From NCBI GenBank assembly GCA_041661505.1, contig JBAZUF010000001.1, positions 47,144 through 111,143 on the forward strand: 64,000 bases of DNA, written 5' to 3'. A model generated the notes under the pieces. That model was given only the letters and a program-made list of their open reading frames with translations, did not search any database and was not told the origin of the DNA. The stretch comes from Patescibacteria group bacterium. GTDB lineage: Bacteria > Patescibacteriota > Patescibacteriia > Patescibacteriales > JBAZCA01. Both the position numbers and the translations under genes were made by a program. This document shows, one piece after another, positions 6,809 through 22,226 of this stretch; positions within the stretch are counted from its first letter, which is position 1, and each line of letters starts with the position of its first letter.

Positions 6809-7106
6809 GTTTATTATTTTTATGTTTCCCGGATTTTTTTATTTTAATTTTTTCCCGCCGGTAGGAAATAAGCTCCTTTATAAGAAAAAAAAGGGAAGCA
6901 ACGCCCAAAACCAGGCTCAATGTTAATATTGCCCAATCCGATCCTTTCATTTGCGGCGAGCCCGCTTGCTCCGGCGCCGCGGCCAGAGTGCTTGATGCTT
7001 CGGTGGCGGCGGCCGGAGTGGAAGAGGCAAATAGCCCGCCGGGGAACCACTCGTAGCTTCCGGATGAATTAGTGGTAAAGCCGTTTTTAATCTTCAGTAT
7101 TTTCAC
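6789..7106 (-). CDS. small membrane-anchored protein (GTG start); overlaps the rSAM start by 20 nt
   Basis: 105-aa ORF with a low-complexity Ala/Ser/Thr region, one TM helix and a Lys/His-rich tail; an internal Met would give a 52-aa version; weak RBS. Confidence 0.35.
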   Translation of the reverse strand: MKILKIKNGFTTNSSGSYEWFPGGLFASSTPAAATEASSTLAAAPEQAGSPQMKGSDWAILTLSLVLGVASLFFLIKELISYRREKIKIKKSGKHKNNKHANHAK

Positions 7107-10750: not shown

Positions 10751-10937
10751 TAACGGCTTCGGAATAAGCGAAGTGGCCGGAGGCATCCCGCCATCAGGCG
10801 GGAGGCCGGAAGGGCATTTCGCGTATTCCGAGTTAGGCGATGTCGCGAGCGGAGCGAGCGGCGAGCCTGACGAGGAAGAATTCCGAAGCCGTTAGGCCGA
10901 AAGGAAAGCGAGCGACAGCGAGCGATTTCGGCCTAAC
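10751..10937. repeat. 187-bp GC-rich structured repeat, copy 1 (two nested hairpins bounded by TAAC)
   Basis: 100% identical to 13227-13413 and 14542-14728; 15-bp terminal stem TAACGGCTTCGGAAT/ATTCCGAAGCCGTTA plus hairpin GTTAGGCCGAAA-N19-TTTCGGCCTAAC. Confidence 0.95.
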
Positions 10938-11151
10938 GTATCCGAATATGAGAAGTTTTTGCCCGCCTCCTTATTATATTATAATTGAAGAAAAGGGCAA
11001 AAATTTGGGTAAAAAATGAAATTCAAGTCCATAATTATATAAAAGAGAATTTCATTTTTTCCTCATATTCGGTGTTGTGCGATGTAAATTTTTTATCTCG
11101 TTGTTTATTGTACTAAATCTTAATGTTACTAAAAGAAAATTTGATTTTTTC

Positions 11152-13226: not shown

Positions 13227-13413
13227 TAACGGCTTCGGAATAAGCGAAGTGGCCGGAGGCATCCCGCCATCAGGCGGGAGGCCGGAAGGGCATTTCGCGT
13301 ATTCCGAGTTAGGCGATGTCGCGAGCGGAGCGAGCGGCGAGCCTGACGAGGAAGAATTCCGAAGCCGTTAGGCCGAAAGGAAAGCGAGCGACAGCGAGCG
13401 ATTTCGGCCTAAC
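13227..13413. repeat. 187-bp GC-rich structured repeat, copy 2
   Basis: identical to copy 1. Confidence 0.95.
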
Positions 13414-13711
13414 GTATCGGGATAAGCGAAGTTCGCTTTCCGGGTTTATTGCTTTTAGCTTAACAATAAAAATGGCTAATGTAAATGCACTTATCGTGGA
13501 ATACGGACTAACAAAGGGAAGCGAATTTGGGAGAAGAAATTTTTCTTTCCTTAGCGTAAAAAATTTAAAAAACGAAAAATTTCTGAACCGCTTATCCCGT
13601 GTTAGACGACCCGAAGGGCTTGAGTTTCATTTTTAATAAAATGATTTTTTGGCTTGATTATAATTATCCTTTATGCTATTGTCATATGTCTTCCAATAAA
13701 CTCGAAAGGGG

Positions 13712-13915
13712 GTGAGTACATTCATGGAGGAAGGGCGTATCGCAGTGATTACAGTGGAATTCGTTAATCCCGATGAGCTAAAGAGAAGGGGTGAAGACGA
13801 ATCTTTGAAGAAACGGGGATGCCTCGGAACAGGAGGGCTGGGAAAATACATACCACTTCTCGCTGACTTTCCCGCGGACGTCAAAAGTGCGGTTCTTTTT
13901 ACCAAAAAGCAATAG
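13712..13915 (+). CDS. small hypothetical protein (67 aa from GTG; 63 aa from ATG 13724)
   Basis: AAAGGGGG RBS upstream; followed by a strong intrinsic terminator. Confidence 0.4.
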   Translation: MSTFMEEGRIAVITVEFVNPDELKRRGEDESLKKRGCLGTGGLGKYIPLLADFPADVKSAVLFTKKQ

Positions 13916-13940
13916 ATACTCCAATCAGGGCAAAAAAGCC

Positions 13941-13972
13941 GAAGACCAGACCGTAAATCTGGTCTTTTTTTT
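13941..13972 (+). terminator. rho-independent terminator (A-tract upstream makes it bidirectional)
   Basis: GACCAG-accgtaaat-CTGGTC followed by TTTTTTTT. Confidence 0.7.
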
Positions 13973-13998
13973 ATTAAAAAATTATTTTATTAAAAATG

Positions 13999-14130
13999 AA
14001 ATTTCGGCCTAACGTTTCCGAATATCGGAAGTTGCCGAAGCGTAGCGAAGGCAATTTGCGAAAAGTCCGAGCCGAGGACTTTTCCCGATATTCGGTGTTA
14101 GGCGAGGGTTCTTTTGCCCTTCCTTATTGT
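13999..14130. repeat. degenerate fourth site of the repeat family (solo right end ATTTCGGCCTAAC plus related palindromic insert)
   Basis: shares TTTCGGCCTAAC-GTtTCCGAATAT with the copy-1 right junction and ATTCgGtGTTAGGCGA with the repeat interior; 11-bp arms CCGAATATCGG/CCGATATTCGG. Confidence 0.6.
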
Positions 14131-14541: not shown

Positions 14542-14728
14542 TAACGGCTTCGGAATAAGCGAAGTGGCCGGAGGCATCCCGCCATCAGGCGGGAGGCCGG
14601 AAGGGCATTTCGCGTATTCCGAGTTAGGCGATGTCGCGAGCGGAGCGAGCGGCGAGCCTGACGAGGAAGAATTCCGAAGCCGTTAGGCCGAAAGGAAAGC
14701 GAGCGACAGCGAGCGATTTCGGCCTAAC
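14542..14728. repeat. 187-bp GC-rich structured repeat, copy 3
   Basis: identical to copies 1 and 2. Confidence 0.95.
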
Positions 14729-19379: not shown

Positions 19380-20831
19380 TTAATTATTAACCTGGCTGAT
19401 TAATTCGCCATCCGGATAAAGATCAAGCACTTTCTGCGAGGCGGTTATTACATTATTCCACTTATATCCCATTTTTTCAAATACTTCCCCGGATGTAAAG
19501 GCCCGTCGCAGGCCGTTCGAAATCAAATACACGCCCGGCGAGGAAGATGATTTTAAGAGTTCTCCGTCGTCGAATTTAACCGGCGCGGCTGTCTGGTATT
19601 TATCCAATTCGCCTTTGGCGGCTCTTTGGATTGTTTTGGTTTTGAATTTGGTCGTTAAAAATATCCGGTCCCAAATCGGCGCTTTAGTATTGTCGATTAC
19701 GTAAAAAACTCCGCCGGTCTTCGGGTCCTGCAAAAGCGCGCCGGTCGCGTAAGTCGAAGTCGCGGTAATCGGCGCGATCTCGCGAAAAGGCGCTAAATCA
19801 TTAAAAGTCACGTCGATTATTTCTTCAGGGTTTATCCCGGTCTTCCTTAAAGCTTCTCTTGAGGCAAAACCGCGGCGGGTATCGTCAACCAAAAGGTAAA
19901 CAGTACCTTTGGGCGAGCGGACTAAAGAATATTGGGAGAATTTAATCGGATCGCCGGCCGGGTATTTATCGATGTCGGACTTGGCTACCATAATAACTTT
20001 ATTGATGTCATATCGGGAGGTTAAGGCGCCCCGGCTGGTAAAAGGCCGTTTATTTCCGCTTTTAATCAGCCAAACGACGCTTTCGCCGGATACTTGCAGA
20101 AGCGATCCGTCGGGATAGTTCCTTACAAAATACTTAAGCCACAATTTGTAAAAATTGTAATTGCCGTTAAAAACATGCGGCGTGTAATTATAGAGGGCGG
20201 CGGTCGCCTGATTGGCCGGCGTAACGCTCATCGGCTCATTGGAAACGGTTCCGTAGGGGTTGGTGAAGGTATAAGTCACGCCGGCTTTGTAAGTATAAAG
20301 CTGGGGATTGTCTAGGTAGTCGCGAAATTGCAATGAGGCGGAATTTATTTGCTTCCAAAGCCCTTTCCACCTCGGATTAGGGCTGGAATTATCCGGACAG
20401 CCGTAGCCGGTTGCCCAATCAAGCTGTGATTGGGACGGCGAGCTGTCCTCAATCAGCCCCTGCTCTTTTTGCAAAAGCACCAGCAAAAATTTCGGATTAA
20501 TGCTGTTGGCAATTGCCCGGTCATATATGATTTGCGCGGCGGTCATAGCCGGGCCGGAACAGGCGGCGGCGTTTAATAAGTCGTCCGATGTACAGCTATT
20601 CACCTTATAGCCGGCCAAAAAGCTTCCCTTCAAAAGTAAAAACTCCTGGATATCGTCCTGATCCATTGAGTTAGAATCCAAAATTTCCAAATCGCTTATT
20701 ATGTAGTTTGGGTTAAAGTTGGAGTCAATGGTTTGCGCCAAAGCCTCCGGCGAAAAATAAAGGCTTTGCGCCATTGAAACGGCCATAAACAAAAAAAGCC
20801 AAGCGGCGCGGTTTATTATTTTTTTACGCAT
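19380..20831 (-). CDS. secreted protein with N-terminal domain plus four approx. 35-aa C-terminal repeats
   Basis: signal peptide; repeats GESVVWLIKSGNKRPFTS.., GTVYLLVDDTRRGFAS.., GGVFYVIDNTKAPIW.., PGVYLISNGLRRAFTS.. Confidence 0.6.
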   Translation of the reverse strand: MRKKIINRAAWLFLFMAVSMAQSLYFSPEALAQTIDSNFNPNYIISDLEILDSNSMDQDDIQEFLLLKGSFLAGYKVNSCTSDDLLNAAACSGPAMTAAQIIYDRAIANSINPKFLLVLLQKEQGLIEDSSPSQSQLDWATGYGCPDNSSPNPRWKGLWKQINSASLQFRDYLDNPQLYTYKAGVTYTFTNPYGTVSNEPMSVTPANQATAALYNYTPHVFNGNYNFYKLWLKYFVRNYPDGSLLQVSGESVVWLIKSGNKRPFTSRGALTSRYDINKVIMVAKSDIDKYPAGDPIKFSQYSLVRSPKGTVYLLVDDTRRGFASREALRKTGINPEEIIDVTFNDLAPFREIAPITATSTYATGALLQDPKTGGVFYVIDNTKAPIWDRIFLTTKFKTKTIQRAAKGELDKYQTAAPVKFDDGELLKSSSSPGVYLISNGLRRAFTSGEVFEKMGYKWNNVITASQKVLDLYPDGELISQVNN

Positions 20832-21020
20832 AATTCCAGTTTATTCAAATGTTCAGATAATAATTTGCGAACAAAAATTTTCCTCACTCATTCTATTATA
20901 ATATACGTCGCCTAGTCCTGGCAAATTACATCTATTTCTTCAATAAAATTCAAATTTGGCTAAGGTTTAACGATTGTGCAAATGCCAGGGTAAATCTGCA
21001 ATAATCCGTCAAAATTCCGT

Positions 21021-21049
21021 TTGACAGGTCCTTATTTTAATAATATGTT
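21021..21049 (+). promoter_or_regulatory. sigma70-like promoter (TTGACA-N17-TATGTT)
   Basis: TTGACA at 21021-21026, TATGTT at 21044-21049. Confidence 0.45.
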
Positions 21050-21168
21050 TAAATCATATCCCCGGGGTTGGCAGTTATATGCCCACTAACATGGGGAAAG
21101 CTGTTCAGGTTTTACTGGAGCGGGCGGTTTTACTGGACAGCAGTACCAGTTTGGAAGGAGAAAATCCG

Positions 21169-21315
21169 ATGATTAAAATTACCGAAGTTGAACGCAAAAT
21201 TCTCGGAATAGGGGCGGCCGCAACATGCCAGCCCAGTCCCGAGACTCCTTCGTGCCATGCCCCGTTGGGCCATTCTTCGTTGCCGTGCCATGCGCCAGTA
21301 GCCCAGGCAACTTGA
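21169..21315 (+). CDS. 48-aa Cys/His-rich small protein (MIKITEVERKILGIG-AAATCQPSPETPSCHAPLGHSSLPCHAPVAQAT)
   Basis: GGAAGGAG RBS 8 nt upstream of ATG; repeated CHAP motif. Confidence 0.35.
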   Translation: MIKITEVERKILGIGAAATCQPSPETPSCHAPLGHSSLPCHAPVAQAT

Positions 21316-21430
21316 CACGGTCCGACGGAACTCTCCAGTTAATGGAGAACAACGGGGTTTTCGCCATAGTCTAAGGGAGGCGTGGCGATTCAAATCCGCT
21401 CCAGTTCTTTTAAATTTTTCACAACTCCAG

Positions 21431-21476
21431 GGCCAGACCATCCGTTTTATTAGGATGTTCTGGCCTAATTTTTTTA
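21431..21476 (+). terminator. rho-independent terminator
   Basis: GGCCAGA-N21-TCTGGCC then TAATTTTTTT. Confidence 0.55.
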
Positions 21477-21640
21477 TGAAAATTCTTAATAAAGTTAGCT
21501 GAATTGGCCAATTAGCGGTAAATTGACTTTTGGTAAAAAATAAGCTAATATAAAGACAAGCTAAATAACCAAAATTTTTTAGCTAATTTTAAAGTAGTGT
21601 CCAGAATTTTGGAGATAAAAGTTCTTTAAATTTTACTAAT

Positions 21641-22226
21641 TCCAGGGTAAGCGGATAGTCGCTCCGCCCCGCATCTGCGGGGCGGAGAGGAAAGTCCGGA
21701 CTCCCGTCCCGTCCGCGTTTTGCAGGCGGGATGATAGCGGCAGTGGGTAACGCCCACCTATCCGCCCGGTAATCGGACGGATAAGGGAAAGTGTCTTGCC
21801 CGTACTGCGGGCAAGATCCTGCTTCCTTAATTCACATTAAGAAAGCAGGGCCACAGAGACAATACTAACCGCGGGGCGTTTACCTTGAGTGAAAAAAACG
21901 TACCGAAGGGCTTTAGGGCCTTTTGATTGCGCTTTAGTCTCGCTTAAGGTAATCGCTTCGCGGTGAAAGGTGAAAAGCTGCTTGGTGTTTTTGGTTATAC
22001 CGGATATCCATATAACTTTAAGCTACAAGTATTCCCGGCTGGTAACAGCCGCGGATGGCAAACCCTGCCTGGAGCAAGAACAAAGCCTCGCCCATATTTT
22101 GAGCGGGGTAAAAAGTAGTTCGCTTGATCCCGCGGGCAACCGCGGGGCTAGATAAATGGCTATCCATCCTTAGCTTCGCATTGAAGAAAAGGAGGACAGA
22201 ATCCGGCTTATAGCTTGCCCTGGAAT
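21641..22226 (+). ncRNA. rnpB: RNase P RNA, bacterial type A, unusually long
   Basis: GAGGAAAGTCCGGACTC (P4/CR-I), GGGTAACGCC, GGCTGGTAACAGCCGCGG...GGAGCAAG, ACAGAATCCGGCTTATAG (CR-V); P1 pairing CCAGGGTAAGC/GCTTGCCCTGG. Confidence 0.85.

What the first reader, a model, noticed from the sequence alone, without database searches (positions are those of the whole stretch)
21021..21476. GC-rich promoter-to-terminator unit upstream of rnpB with a 48-codon Cys/His-rich ORF: ncRNA, small protein, or both
A TTGACA-N17-TATGTT promoter (21021-21049) and a good terminator (21431-21476) bracket about 420 nt of locally high-GC sequence in an 800-bp protein-free gap. The region contains direct repeats (GGTTTTACTGGA twice; CGTGCCATGC twice), a 9-bp long-range pairing (CTGGAGCGG / CCGCTCCAG), and a T-loop-like GGCGATTCAAATCCGC near the 3' end. 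It also contains an ORF with a strong RBS (GGAAGGAG-8-ATG) encoding MIKITEVERKILGIG-AAATCQPSPETPSCHAPLGHSSLPCHAPVAQAT, in which the CHAP motif is repeated. The ORF could be a metal-binding micro-protein or a RiPP-like precursor, or a coding artefact inside a structured RNA. tmRNA and SRP RNA were considered, but their canonical motifs are missing.
Basis: seen in the sequence. Interest (0 to 1): 0.6.

Follow-up and report, generated by a model that had tools for sequence, protein, structure and literature searches.

The report
Orphan GC-rich RNA unit beside rnpB
A roughly 540-bp species-specific insertion next to the RNase P RNA gene of a Falkowbacteria (CPR) genome has its own promoter, a strongly folded GC-rich body and a terminator; it matches no known RNA or protein family, its short Cys/His ORF is probably incidental, and its function is unknown.

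Summary
The sequence features are real. They include a TTGACA-17-TATGTT promoter, a strong + strand terminator, a 53-59% GC body in AT-rich spacer, a 10-bp long-range helix, two direct repeats and an SD-preceded 48-codon ORF.

No Rfam family matches, and relaxed ARAGORN gives only noise-level tmRNA calls.

The ORF has no relative among about 15 billion proteins other than itself. Its codon usage equals that of spurious ORFs, its SD is predicted 98% base-paired, and AlphaFold gives no confident fold.

None of 160 syntenic Falkowbacteria loci carries the element. The three nearest relatives (72-75% identity in the neighbouring protein) differ:
- One has the neighbouring gene and rnpB about 260 nt apart, with nothing in between.
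- One keeps the same promoter (both hexamers and the start region identical, spacer diverged), but what follows is a different, non-alignable, GC-rich, structured sequence.
- More distant relatives carry unrelated protein genes there.

So this is an indel at a variable hot spot. My best reading is a lineage-restricted structured non-coding transcript (confidence about 0.4). The rivals are a selfish or relic insertion, or a small or dual-function protein gene. Interest is modest.

The parts
20931..21476 (+). Approximate extent of the indel relative to the nearest relative, L163. Homology to L163 stops after GGCAAATTACA and resumes at GGCC/TGAAAAT.
21021..21049 (+). Sigma-70-type promoter TTGACA-17-TATGTT. 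Both hexamers and the following TAAAT are identical in relative L164/L171, while the spacer has diverged.
21056..21056 (+). Inferred transcription start, about 7 nt after the -10 hexamer. Not measured.
   Evidence: inference
21060..21096 (+). Predicted 5' hairpin (CCCCGGGG...GGCA/UGCC...GGGG).
21108..21137 (+). Two copies of GGTTTTACTGGA, 18 nt start to start. A repeat of 12 nt or more occurs in 0.4% of shuffles.
21114..21123 (+). 5' arm of the 10-bp helix that closes the GC-rich domain (ACUGGAGCGG).
   Evidence: pair probabilities 0.87-1.0
21396..21405 (+). 3' arm of the closing helix (CCGCUCCAGU).
21153..21160 (+). Shine-Dalgarno-like GGAAGGAG, 8 nt before the ATG. Predicted paired with 21245-21251 (P about 0.98).
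21169..21315 (+). 48-codon ORF plus stop codon (MIKITEVERKILGIGAAATCQPSPETPSCHAPLGHSSLPCHAPVAQAT). It lies in frame inside the called 78-codon ORF 21079-21315.
21245..21251 (+). Anti-SD CUCCUUC inside the ORF.
21251..21305 (+). Two 22-nt direct repeats (77% identical), 33 nt apart. They produce the duplicated CHAP motif.
21384..21400 (+). T-loop-like GGCGA-UUCAAAU-CCGCU. It has an A53.C61 mismatch and is not formed in the predicted ensemble.
21431..21476 (+). Intrinsic terminator: a hairpin with stems of 8 and 5 pairs separated by a bulge, then a T-run.
21523..21551 (+). Context: rnpB's own promoter TTGACT-17-TAATAT, conserved in L163.
21643..22226 (+). Context: RNase P RNA (class A, with large insertions).

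Best explanation
The unit is a lineage-restricted insertion of about 540 bp in the spacer between a secreted-protein gene (19380-20831, minus strand) and rnpB of a Candidatus Falkowbacteria (Patescibacteria) genome. It forms an autonomous transcription unit.

Proposed mechanism:
- A sigma-70-type promoter at 21021-21049 starts transcription near 21056.
- The transcript of about 410-420 nt folds into a 5' hairpin plus a large GC-rich domain closed by a 10-bp helix (21114-21123 with 21396-21405).
- Transcription ends at the intrinsic terminator, 21431-21476.

The product is most likely a stable, structured non-coding RNA of unknown function that belongs to no described family. The 48-codon Cys/His ORF is most likely a by-product of GC-rich sequence, and its ribosome-binding site is locked in a 7-bp helix.

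What is shown:
- the sequence features;
- their excess over chance;
- the absence of any known family;
- the indel status of the unit;
- conservation of the promoter in one relative.

What is inferred: that the unit is transcribed, that the RNA is the functional product, and everything about what it does.
For: 1. The terminator has its T-run on the + strand and no same-strand gene upstream, because the neighbouring gene is divergent. A + strand transcript must therefore start inside the gap.
2. Relative L164/L171 has TTGACA-17-TATGTTTAAAT about 190 nt from the same neighbouring gene. All 17 specified bases are identical while the spacer and surroundings have diverged, which is the pattern expected of a promoter under selection.
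3. The body is 53-59% GC in an AT-rich spacer, like rnpB next door.
4. Folding z-scores are -3.0 for the body and -4.8 with the terminator. The closing helix has pair probabilities of 0.87-1.0. A 10-bp inverted repeat arises in 3.9% of shuffles.
5. The sequence behind the same promoter in L171 is also GC-rich and structured (z = -3.3).
6. The coding reading is weak.
7. The unit is identical in three independent assemblies, so it is not an assembly artefact.
Against: - No covariation test is possible. No alignable homologue exists in 160 syntenic loci, in phage, plasmid or viral collections, or through ORF proxies in the protein databases.
- The nearest relative, L163, lacks the unit entirely.
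- L171's sequence downstream of the shared promoter is not alignable with it (local score 23; shuffles 22 +/- 3). Any RNA here evolves far faster than rnpB, which stays 78-81% identical.
- The z-score is moderate and equal on both strands.
- There is no expression data.
- The genome carries other GC-rich insertions in its spacers, so GC-rich spacer DNA here is not by itself evidence of an RNA gene.
Confidence: 0.4

Rival explanations
1. It is a selfish or relic insertion with no function for the cell: a MITE-like element, or debris from recombination at a hot spot. The 10-bp arms are terminal inverted repeats of a 292-bp element, the internal repeats come from slippage, and the promoter and terminator are incidental or left over.
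For: - The interval between the neighbouring gene and rnpB differs in every relative examined. L163 has nothing there, L164/L171 has a different GC-rich sequence, L165/166 has a 325-375-aa Pfam-less gene, and L005 has CorA-like and kinase-like genes.
- The same window holds a 189-bp GC-rich palindromic repeat in three 100% identical copies. Small GC-rich insertions therefore do spread in this genome's spacers.
- The element has perfect 10-bp inverted arms.
- Two assemblies of the L164/L171 genome both break about 250 nt after the promoter, as happens at multi-copy repeats.
- There is no sequence conservation anywhere.
Against: - The element is single-copy in the 64-kb window, and no clear target-site duplication is seen.
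- Conservation of the promoter hexamers and start site in L171, with a diverged spacer, argues for selection on transcription.
- The terminator is strong and correctly oriented.
- A non-functional GC-rich segment should decay toward the AT-rich spacer composition unless it is recent.
Confidence: 0.3
2. It is a small-protein gene or a dual-function RNA. The 48-aa peptide is translated when the SD:anti-SD helix is opened, and the structured RNA regulates its own translation or also acts as an RNA.
For: - A strong SD (GGAAGGAG) lies 8 nt from the ATG. An ORF with an SD core arises in only 6% of shuffles.
- The first 15 codons have native-like codon usage (0.605 per codon; real genes average 0.296).
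- The 33-nt repeat spacing keeps the frame.
- Gene callers and GenBank annotate the 78-codon form.
- SD sequestration and a long-range fold-back helix resemble translationally controlled small-ORF mRNAs (the comparison rests on general knowledge of hok-type mRNAs).
Against: - The ORF's only relative among about 15 billion proteins is itself, with no family hit.
- The GC-rich two-thirds of the ORF scores -0.26 per codon. The whole ORF scores 0.011, which is the mean of spurious ORFs.
- ORFs of this length arise in 40% of shuffles.
- pLDDT is 61, and the Cys/His part is disordered.
- L171's ORF at the comparable position is 19-25 codons long with no similarity (score 18; shuffle mean 17.9).
- The peptide has no hydrophobic segment, so it is not toxin-like.
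- No RiPP enzymes lie within about 5 kb.
Confidence: 0.2
3. It is a highly divergent member of a known housekeeping RNA family (tmRNA, SRP RNA or 6S RNA) that the covariance models miss in CPR bacteria.
For: - The size, about 345 nt from GGGUUGG (21065) to 21408, is tmRNA-like.
- GGGUUGG can pair with CCAGUUC (21401-21407), including a G3.U70 wobble, next to a T-loop-like UUCAAAU.
- ARAGORN at 60% threshold proposes this model with a GCG resume codon.
- A tRNA-like fold at 21327-21409 appears at the 85% threshold, where the window gives only 7 calls.
Against: - No tmRNA, SRP or 6S hit even at E<=10.
- At ARAGORN's 60% threshold there are 241 calls in 64 kb, and none in the element at 80% or 90%.
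- The conserved UUCGAC D-loop analogue is absent. The T-stem has an A.C mismatch at the universally conserved G53-C61 position. The discriminator is U, not A. The 33-aa tag ending in AQAT is atypical.
- The T-arm has probability 0 in the ensemble.
- A housekeeping RNA would not be missing from L163's syntenic site and non-alignable in L171, given that rnpB stays 78-81% identical.
- No smpB is present in the window (query sequence recalled from memory).
Confidence: 0.03

Closest known systems
GC-rich intergenic islands that mark structured ncRNA genes in AT-rich genomes (the signal used in GC-content and IGR-length screens for bacterial ncRNAs; from general knowledge)
   Same: A promoter-to-terminator unit with no same-strand gene. 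Its GC is about 20 points above the surrounding spacer, like rnpB next door, and its folding energy is better than shuffles.
   Different: Such candidates are normally validated by conservation and covariation, and here there is none. The unit is absent or non-alignable in the nearest relatives.
tmRNA (ssrA)
   Same: Similar length; a T-loop-like UUCAAAU near the 3' end; a possible 7-bp acceptor-like pairing with G3.U70; an Ala (GCG) codon that could act as a resume codon.
   Different: It fails the covariance model, ARAGORN at useful thresholds, the D-loop consensus, the G53-C61 pair, the A73 discriminator and typical tag ends. It is also not conserved in relatives.
Dual-function sRNAs and translationally locked small-ORF mRNAs (SgrS/SgrT, RNAIII/hld, SR1/SR1P; hok-type mRNAs with fold-back inhibition; from general knowledge)
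   Same: A structured RNA of a few hundred nt carries a short SD-preceded ORF. The SD is sequestered by an internal anti-SD, and a long-range helix closes the body.
   Different: There is no evidence that the peptide exists. It is not hydrophobic, there is no antisense partner or target, and neither the ORF nor the RNA is conserved.
MITEs and REP-like palindromic repeats
   Same: A short non-autonomous GC-rich insertion in a spacer with perfect 10-bp inverted arms. The same window has a true multi-copy palindromic repeat.
   Different: It is single-copy in the window, with no clear target-site duplication. It carries a conserved promoter and a terminator, and its folding z (-3) is far weaker than that of the real repeat family (-9.2).

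Membership tests
tmRNA | Match to the Rfam tmRNA covariance models (standard and permuted) | tested here: not met
   No tmRNA-family match at gathering score or at E<=10 over 20850-21650.
tmRNA | tRNA-like domain: a 7-bp acceptor stem with G3.U70, a T-arm with G53-C61, A73, and the D-loop analogue (UUCGAC) | tested here: not met
   An acceptor-like pairing with G3.U70 is possible. However, the T-stem has A.C at 53-61, the discriminator is U, and there is no UUCGAC. ARAGORN calls it only at the 60% threshold, where 241 calls occur in 64 kb. The T-arm has P = 0 in the ensemble.
tmRNA | A short tag reading frame with an Ala resume codon and a hydrophobic or Ala-rich C-terminus | tested here: inconclusive
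   A GCG resume codon is possible, but the tag would be 33 aa and end in ...VAQAT. ARAGORN reports 'Tag not identified'.
SRP RNA / 6S RNA / riboswitches / large ncRNAs (OLE, GOLLD, ROOL, HEARO, raiA) | Match to the family covariance model | tested here: not met
   Only noise hits (12-20 bits, E 3.8-9.8). None covers the GC-rich body; the only one inside it is a 21-nt snoRNA-model match at 21165-21185.
tRNA or tRNA pseudogene | A cloverleaf with D, anticodon and T arms | tested here: not met
   Default ARAGORN finds none. At the 85% threshold a fold at 21327-21409 appears, but it has a 3-bp D-stem, two G.A mismatches in the anticodon stem and an A.C in the T-stem.
RiPP precursor | Adjacent modifying, transport or protease genes, and a recognisable leader | tested here: not met
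   The neighbours are Mur ligase, MurB, Memo-like, a secreted protein, a sugar transferase, a histidine phosphatase and glycosyltransferases. There is no precursor family hit.
Conserved small protein | Homologues with a preserved reading frame | tested here: not met
   The only hit in two exhaustive protein searches is the ORF itself. L171's ORF is unrelated.
Type I toxin mRNA | A small hydrophobic membrane peptide plus an antisense RNA | tested here: not met
   By inspection the peptide has no hydrophobic segment (translation). No antisense promoter-terminator pair is seen.
MITE | Terminal inverted repeats, target-site duplication, and multiple copies | tested here: inconclusive
   10-bp inverted arms are present. 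The element is single-copy in 64 kb. The rest of the genome was not searchable, and no clear duplication is seen.
Structured ncRNA (generic) | Covarying base pairs across homologues | not testable with these tools
   No alignable homologue was found in any collection that could be searched.

The most novel reading that the evidence does not exclude
The spacer beside rnpB holds a fast-turnover RNA locus. A promoter kept under selection drives different, non-homologous, GC-rich structured RNAs in sister lineages of Falkowbacteria. The window and L164/L171 share the promoter but have unrelated cargo, and the locus is lost in L163. That would make it a cassette-like or diversifying RNA gene in a reduced CPR genome.
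Probability: 0.12. Interest if true: 0.6.

Novelty: new member of a known kind. Interest (0 to 1): 0.3.

Why it matters
CPR/Patescibacteria genomes are small, and their non-coding RNA repertoire is almost unexplored. If this unit is expressed, it would be a species-level orphan RNA gene beside an essential RNA gene. The pattern of a shared promoter with unrelated cargo would point to rapid turnover of RNA genes in these organisms. If it is just an insertion relic, the lesson is practical: in this genome, GC-rich spacer islands and ORFs called on them (GenBank WCW77_03855) are not reliable evidence of genes.

Tried and rejected
- Rfam at gathering score over the whole window and at E<=10 over the gap found nothing in the body.
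- ARAGORN found nothing at default settings. Relaxed tmRNA calls are at noise level. A tRNA-like fold appears at the 85% threshold but is poor.
- blastn, nhmmer and tblastx of the element against 160 syntenic loci from GTDB genomes and JGI metagenomes found no match.
- BLAST against phages and plasmids, and three viral-contig scans for the element, its ORF and the L171 sequence, found nothing.
- Protein searches with the 78-aa + strand ORF (word-indexed and exhaustive phmmer) and the 103-aa minus-strand ORF returned only the ORF itself, or nothing.
- The element is not a remnant of the CorA-like or kinase-like genes of L005, nor of L165's 375-aa gene.
- A tRNA 3'-fragment (att-site) origin was considered. 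The element shows no resemblance to the tRNAs that lie in the flank upstream of rnpB in some relatives.
- smpB is not in the window (the query was recalled from memory).
- Microdiversity could not be used, because the three assemblies are 100% identical.
- Further homologue contexts of the neighbouring protein (L167-L170, L172) have unrelated neighbourhoods.
- Other GC-rich islands upstream of rnpB in relatives turned out, where inspected, to be a tRNA or small minus-strand protein genes.
- Antisense target prediction against 55 translation-initiation regions gave nothing; the neighbouring gene ranks 27th of 55.
- Two literature searches found nothing relevant.
- A covariance model of the whole element was not built. 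At 355 nt it exceeds the calibration limit, and a single-sequence model would add little.

Full report
**What is there**

The gap between a divergent 483-aa gene (19380-20831, minus strand; here called p483) and rnpB (21643-22226; Rfam RNaseP_bact_a, 145.6 bits) is 811 nt. Within it I confirmed the following:
- A TTGACA-17-TATGTT promoter at 21021-21049.
- A strong stem-loop at 21431-21465 followed by TAATTTTTTTAT. Its pair probabilities are 0.96-1.0 and its z-score against shuffles is -5.25.
- A body of 54-59.5% GC, with flanks at 30-37%.
- GGTTTTACTGGA twice, 18 nt apart, and a 22-nt repeat twice, 33 nt apart.
- A perfect 10-bp inverted repeat: ACTGGAGCGG at 21114-21123 and CCGCTCCAGT at 21396-21405.

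In dinucleotide shuffles of the element, an inverted repeat of 10 nt or more arises in 3.9% of cases and a direct repeat of 12 nt or more in 0.4%.

The ORF is real. GGAAGGAG, an 8-nt spacer and an ATG at 21169 open 48 codons, in frame inside a 78-codon ORF (21079-21315). Gene callers and GenBank annotate the longer form as hypothetical protein WCW77_03855.

The locus is 100% identical in two further assemblies (ENA ERZ27249449 and Logan SRR6484324), and the called ORF is also on record in NCBI and JGI. It is therefore not a chimera.

**Host and context**

Relatives of the downstream sugar transferase and of p483 are all Candidatus Falkowbacteria / Patescibacteria MAGs. The neighbourhood is cell-envelope housekeeping: MurC, MurB, a Memo-like gene, p483, rnpB, Bac_transf, a histidine phosphatase and glycosyltransferases.

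**Not a known RNA**

Rfam 15 finds only rnpB and one tRNA in the window at gathering score. At E<=10 over 20850-21650 it returns only noise. None of those hits covers the GC-rich body; the only one inside it is a 21-nt snoRNA-model match.

ARAGORN finds nothing at default settings. When relaxed to 60%, it proposes a tmRNA at 21065-21408. That model has a GGGUUGG/CCAGUUC acceptor with G3.U70, a GCG resume codon and a 33-aa tag. At that threshold, however, the 64-kb window yields 241 tmRNA calls, and at 80-90% the element yields none. The model also lacks the UUCGAC D-loop analogue, has A.C in place of G53-C61, and has a U discriminator.

A tRNA-like fold at 21327-21409 appears at the 85% threshold, where the window gives 7 calls in total. 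Its arms are poor.

In the thermodynamic ensemble the T-arm-like helix has probability 0, because its 3' strand belongs to the 10-bp closing helix, which has probability 0.87-1.0.

**Structure**

| Region | Folding z-score |
|---|---|
| Body 21056-21410, + strand | -3.0 |
| Body 21056-21410, minus strand | -2.9 |
| 21050-21480, terminator included | -4.8 |

The predicted fold is a 5' hairpin followed by a multi-branched domain closed by the 10-bp helix. The SD (21154-21160) pairs with CUCCUUC (21245-21251) at P of about 0.98. On this prediction, translation would be blocked by default.

**Coding potential**

- The 78-aa ORF has one relative in 5.8 billion clusters, and the same one in an exhaustive phmmer search of 1.84 billion representatives. 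That relative is a 74-aa form of the same ORF.
- The 103-aa minus-strand ORF has no relative.
- Pfam and NCBIfam give nothing above noise.
- The codon log-likelihood of ORF48 is 0.011 per codon. Spurious ORFs average -0.006 +/- 0.135 and real-gene segments 0.296 +/- 0.155.
- The GC-rich two-thirds of the ORF scores -0.26. The first 15 codons (MIKITEVERKILGIG) score 0.605, which is native-like.
- ORFs of 48 codons or more arise in 40% of shuffles, and in 6% with an SD core as well.
- A single-sequence AlphaFold model has pLDDT 61 and pTM 0.29. Only a short N-terminal helix has pLDDT around 80, and the Cys/His half has low confidence and no regular secondary structure.
- No RiPP-type enzymes lie nearby.

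**Comparative evidence**

In 160 loci anchored on the transferase (52-74% identity; 80 from GTDB genomes and 80 from JGI metagenomes), blastn and motif scans find rnpB directly upstream of the transferase in most. None contains the element by blastn, nhmmer or tblastx. In 9 of the 13 loci where it could be measured, the spacer upstream of rnpB is only 70-190 nt and AT-rich.

A search with p483 found three closer genomes, mutually 72-75% identical:

| Relative | Identity to p483 | What lies between p483 and rnpB |
|---|---|---|
| L163 | 75% | About 260 nt of spacer holding only rnpB's own promoter, which is homologous to window 21523-21551 |
| L164 / L171 | 74% | The shared promoter, then a different GC-rich structured sequence; both contigs end about 250 nt later |
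| L165 / L166 | 65% | A 325-375-aa Pfam-less gene |
| L005 | 62% | CorA-like and kinase-like genes |

- **L163.** The window aligns up to GGCAAATTACA (about 20930) and again from GGCC/TGAAAAT (about 21462-21477). The promoter, body and terminator together therefore form an indel of about 540 bp. rnpB itself stays 78-81% identical between the two genomes.
- **L164/L171.** These are two assemblies of one genome. The region from p483 through TTGACA-17-TATGTTTAAAT is alignable, with both hexamers and the start region identical and the spacer diverged. Similarity then stops abruptly (local score 23; shuffles 22 +/- 3). What follows is about 250 nt of different sequence that is GC-rich, structured (z = -3.3) and has no Rfam hit. 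Its best ORF is 19-25 codons long and has no similarity to ORF48 (score 18; shuffle mean 17.9).

The interval is therefore a variable hot spot.

**Interpretation**

Two facts argue that something is transcribed from the + strand. The promoter signature is conserved in L171. The terminator is correctly oriented and has no upstream same-strand gene to serve. GC enrichment and folding favour an RNA product over a protein.

Three things stand against a conserved function. L163 lacks the unit. The L171 cargo is not homologous. This genome also spreads other GC-rich insertions in its spacers.

I therefore rank the readings as follows:

| Reading | Confidence |
|---|---|
| Lineage-restricted structured non-coding transcript | about 0.4 |
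| Selfish or relic insertion | about 0.3 |
| Small-protein gene or dual-function RNA | about 0.2 |
| Divergent known housekeeping RNA | about 0.03 |

The function is unknown. Simple antisense target prediction gave no candidate.

**Novelty and interest**

This is an orphan candidate sRNA or insertion, which is a known kind of thing, with no homologues on which to build. The one unusual observation is a shared promoter with unrelated structured cargo in a sister lineage. It rests on two genomes, one of them truncated. Interest is 0.3.

Noticed in passing
window 10752-10940, 13228-13416, 14543-14728: A 186-189-bp, roughly 65% GC palindromic repeat occurs in three 100% identical, same-orientation copies in spacers. 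It has two hairpin modules: TAACGGCTTCGGAAT...ATTCCGAAGCCGTTA and TTAGGCCGAAA...TTTCGGCCTAA. Its folding z-score is -9.2. It has no Rfam family, and it is absent from all related loci and from viral contigs. It looks MITE- or REP-like.
   Followed up: partly
window 14004-14110: A shorter GC-rich piece shares the TTTCGGCCTAACG end motif of the repeat above. It may be a degenerate or related family member.
   Followed up: no
window 13724-13915: An unannotated-looking 63-codon ORF (MEEGRIAVITVEFVNPDELKRRGEDE...) is followed by a terminator-like hairpin at about 13940-13975. It sits between copies of the GC-rich repeat.
   Followed up: no
window 21643-22226; L163 96-802; L003, L004, L027: RNase P RNA in these Falkowbacteria is expanded to 584-707 nt, against a 367-position class A model. 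Large insertions lie in several helices, and their length varies between close relatives.
   Followed up: no
L164 1-504 and L171 1-468: Two assemblies of the same relative (Logan ERR6862853 and ENA ERZ27297473) both end within 12 nt of each other, about 250 nt downstream of the shared promoter. This suggests a multi-copy repeat or strain heterogeneity at that point.
   Followed up: partly
L165 3710-4837 / L166 3710-4687; L005 1467-3289: The interval between the p483 homologue and rnpB carries unrelated cargo in other relatives. L165/166 has a 325-375-aa Pfam-less gene, and L005 has CorA-like and kinase-like genes. The interval is a recombination or insertion hot spot.
   Followed up: partly
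L007 2951-3235 and L011 2916-3194 (minus strand): Small 92-94-aa minus-strand ORFs with good SD sequences lie just upstream of rnpB in two relatives. They are unrelated to the element.
   Followed up: no
window 6934-7050: A GC-rich (about 63%) stretch lies at the edge of a spacer. It is probably the Ala/Gly-rich N-terminal part of a minus-strand gene, but this was not checked.
   Followed up: no
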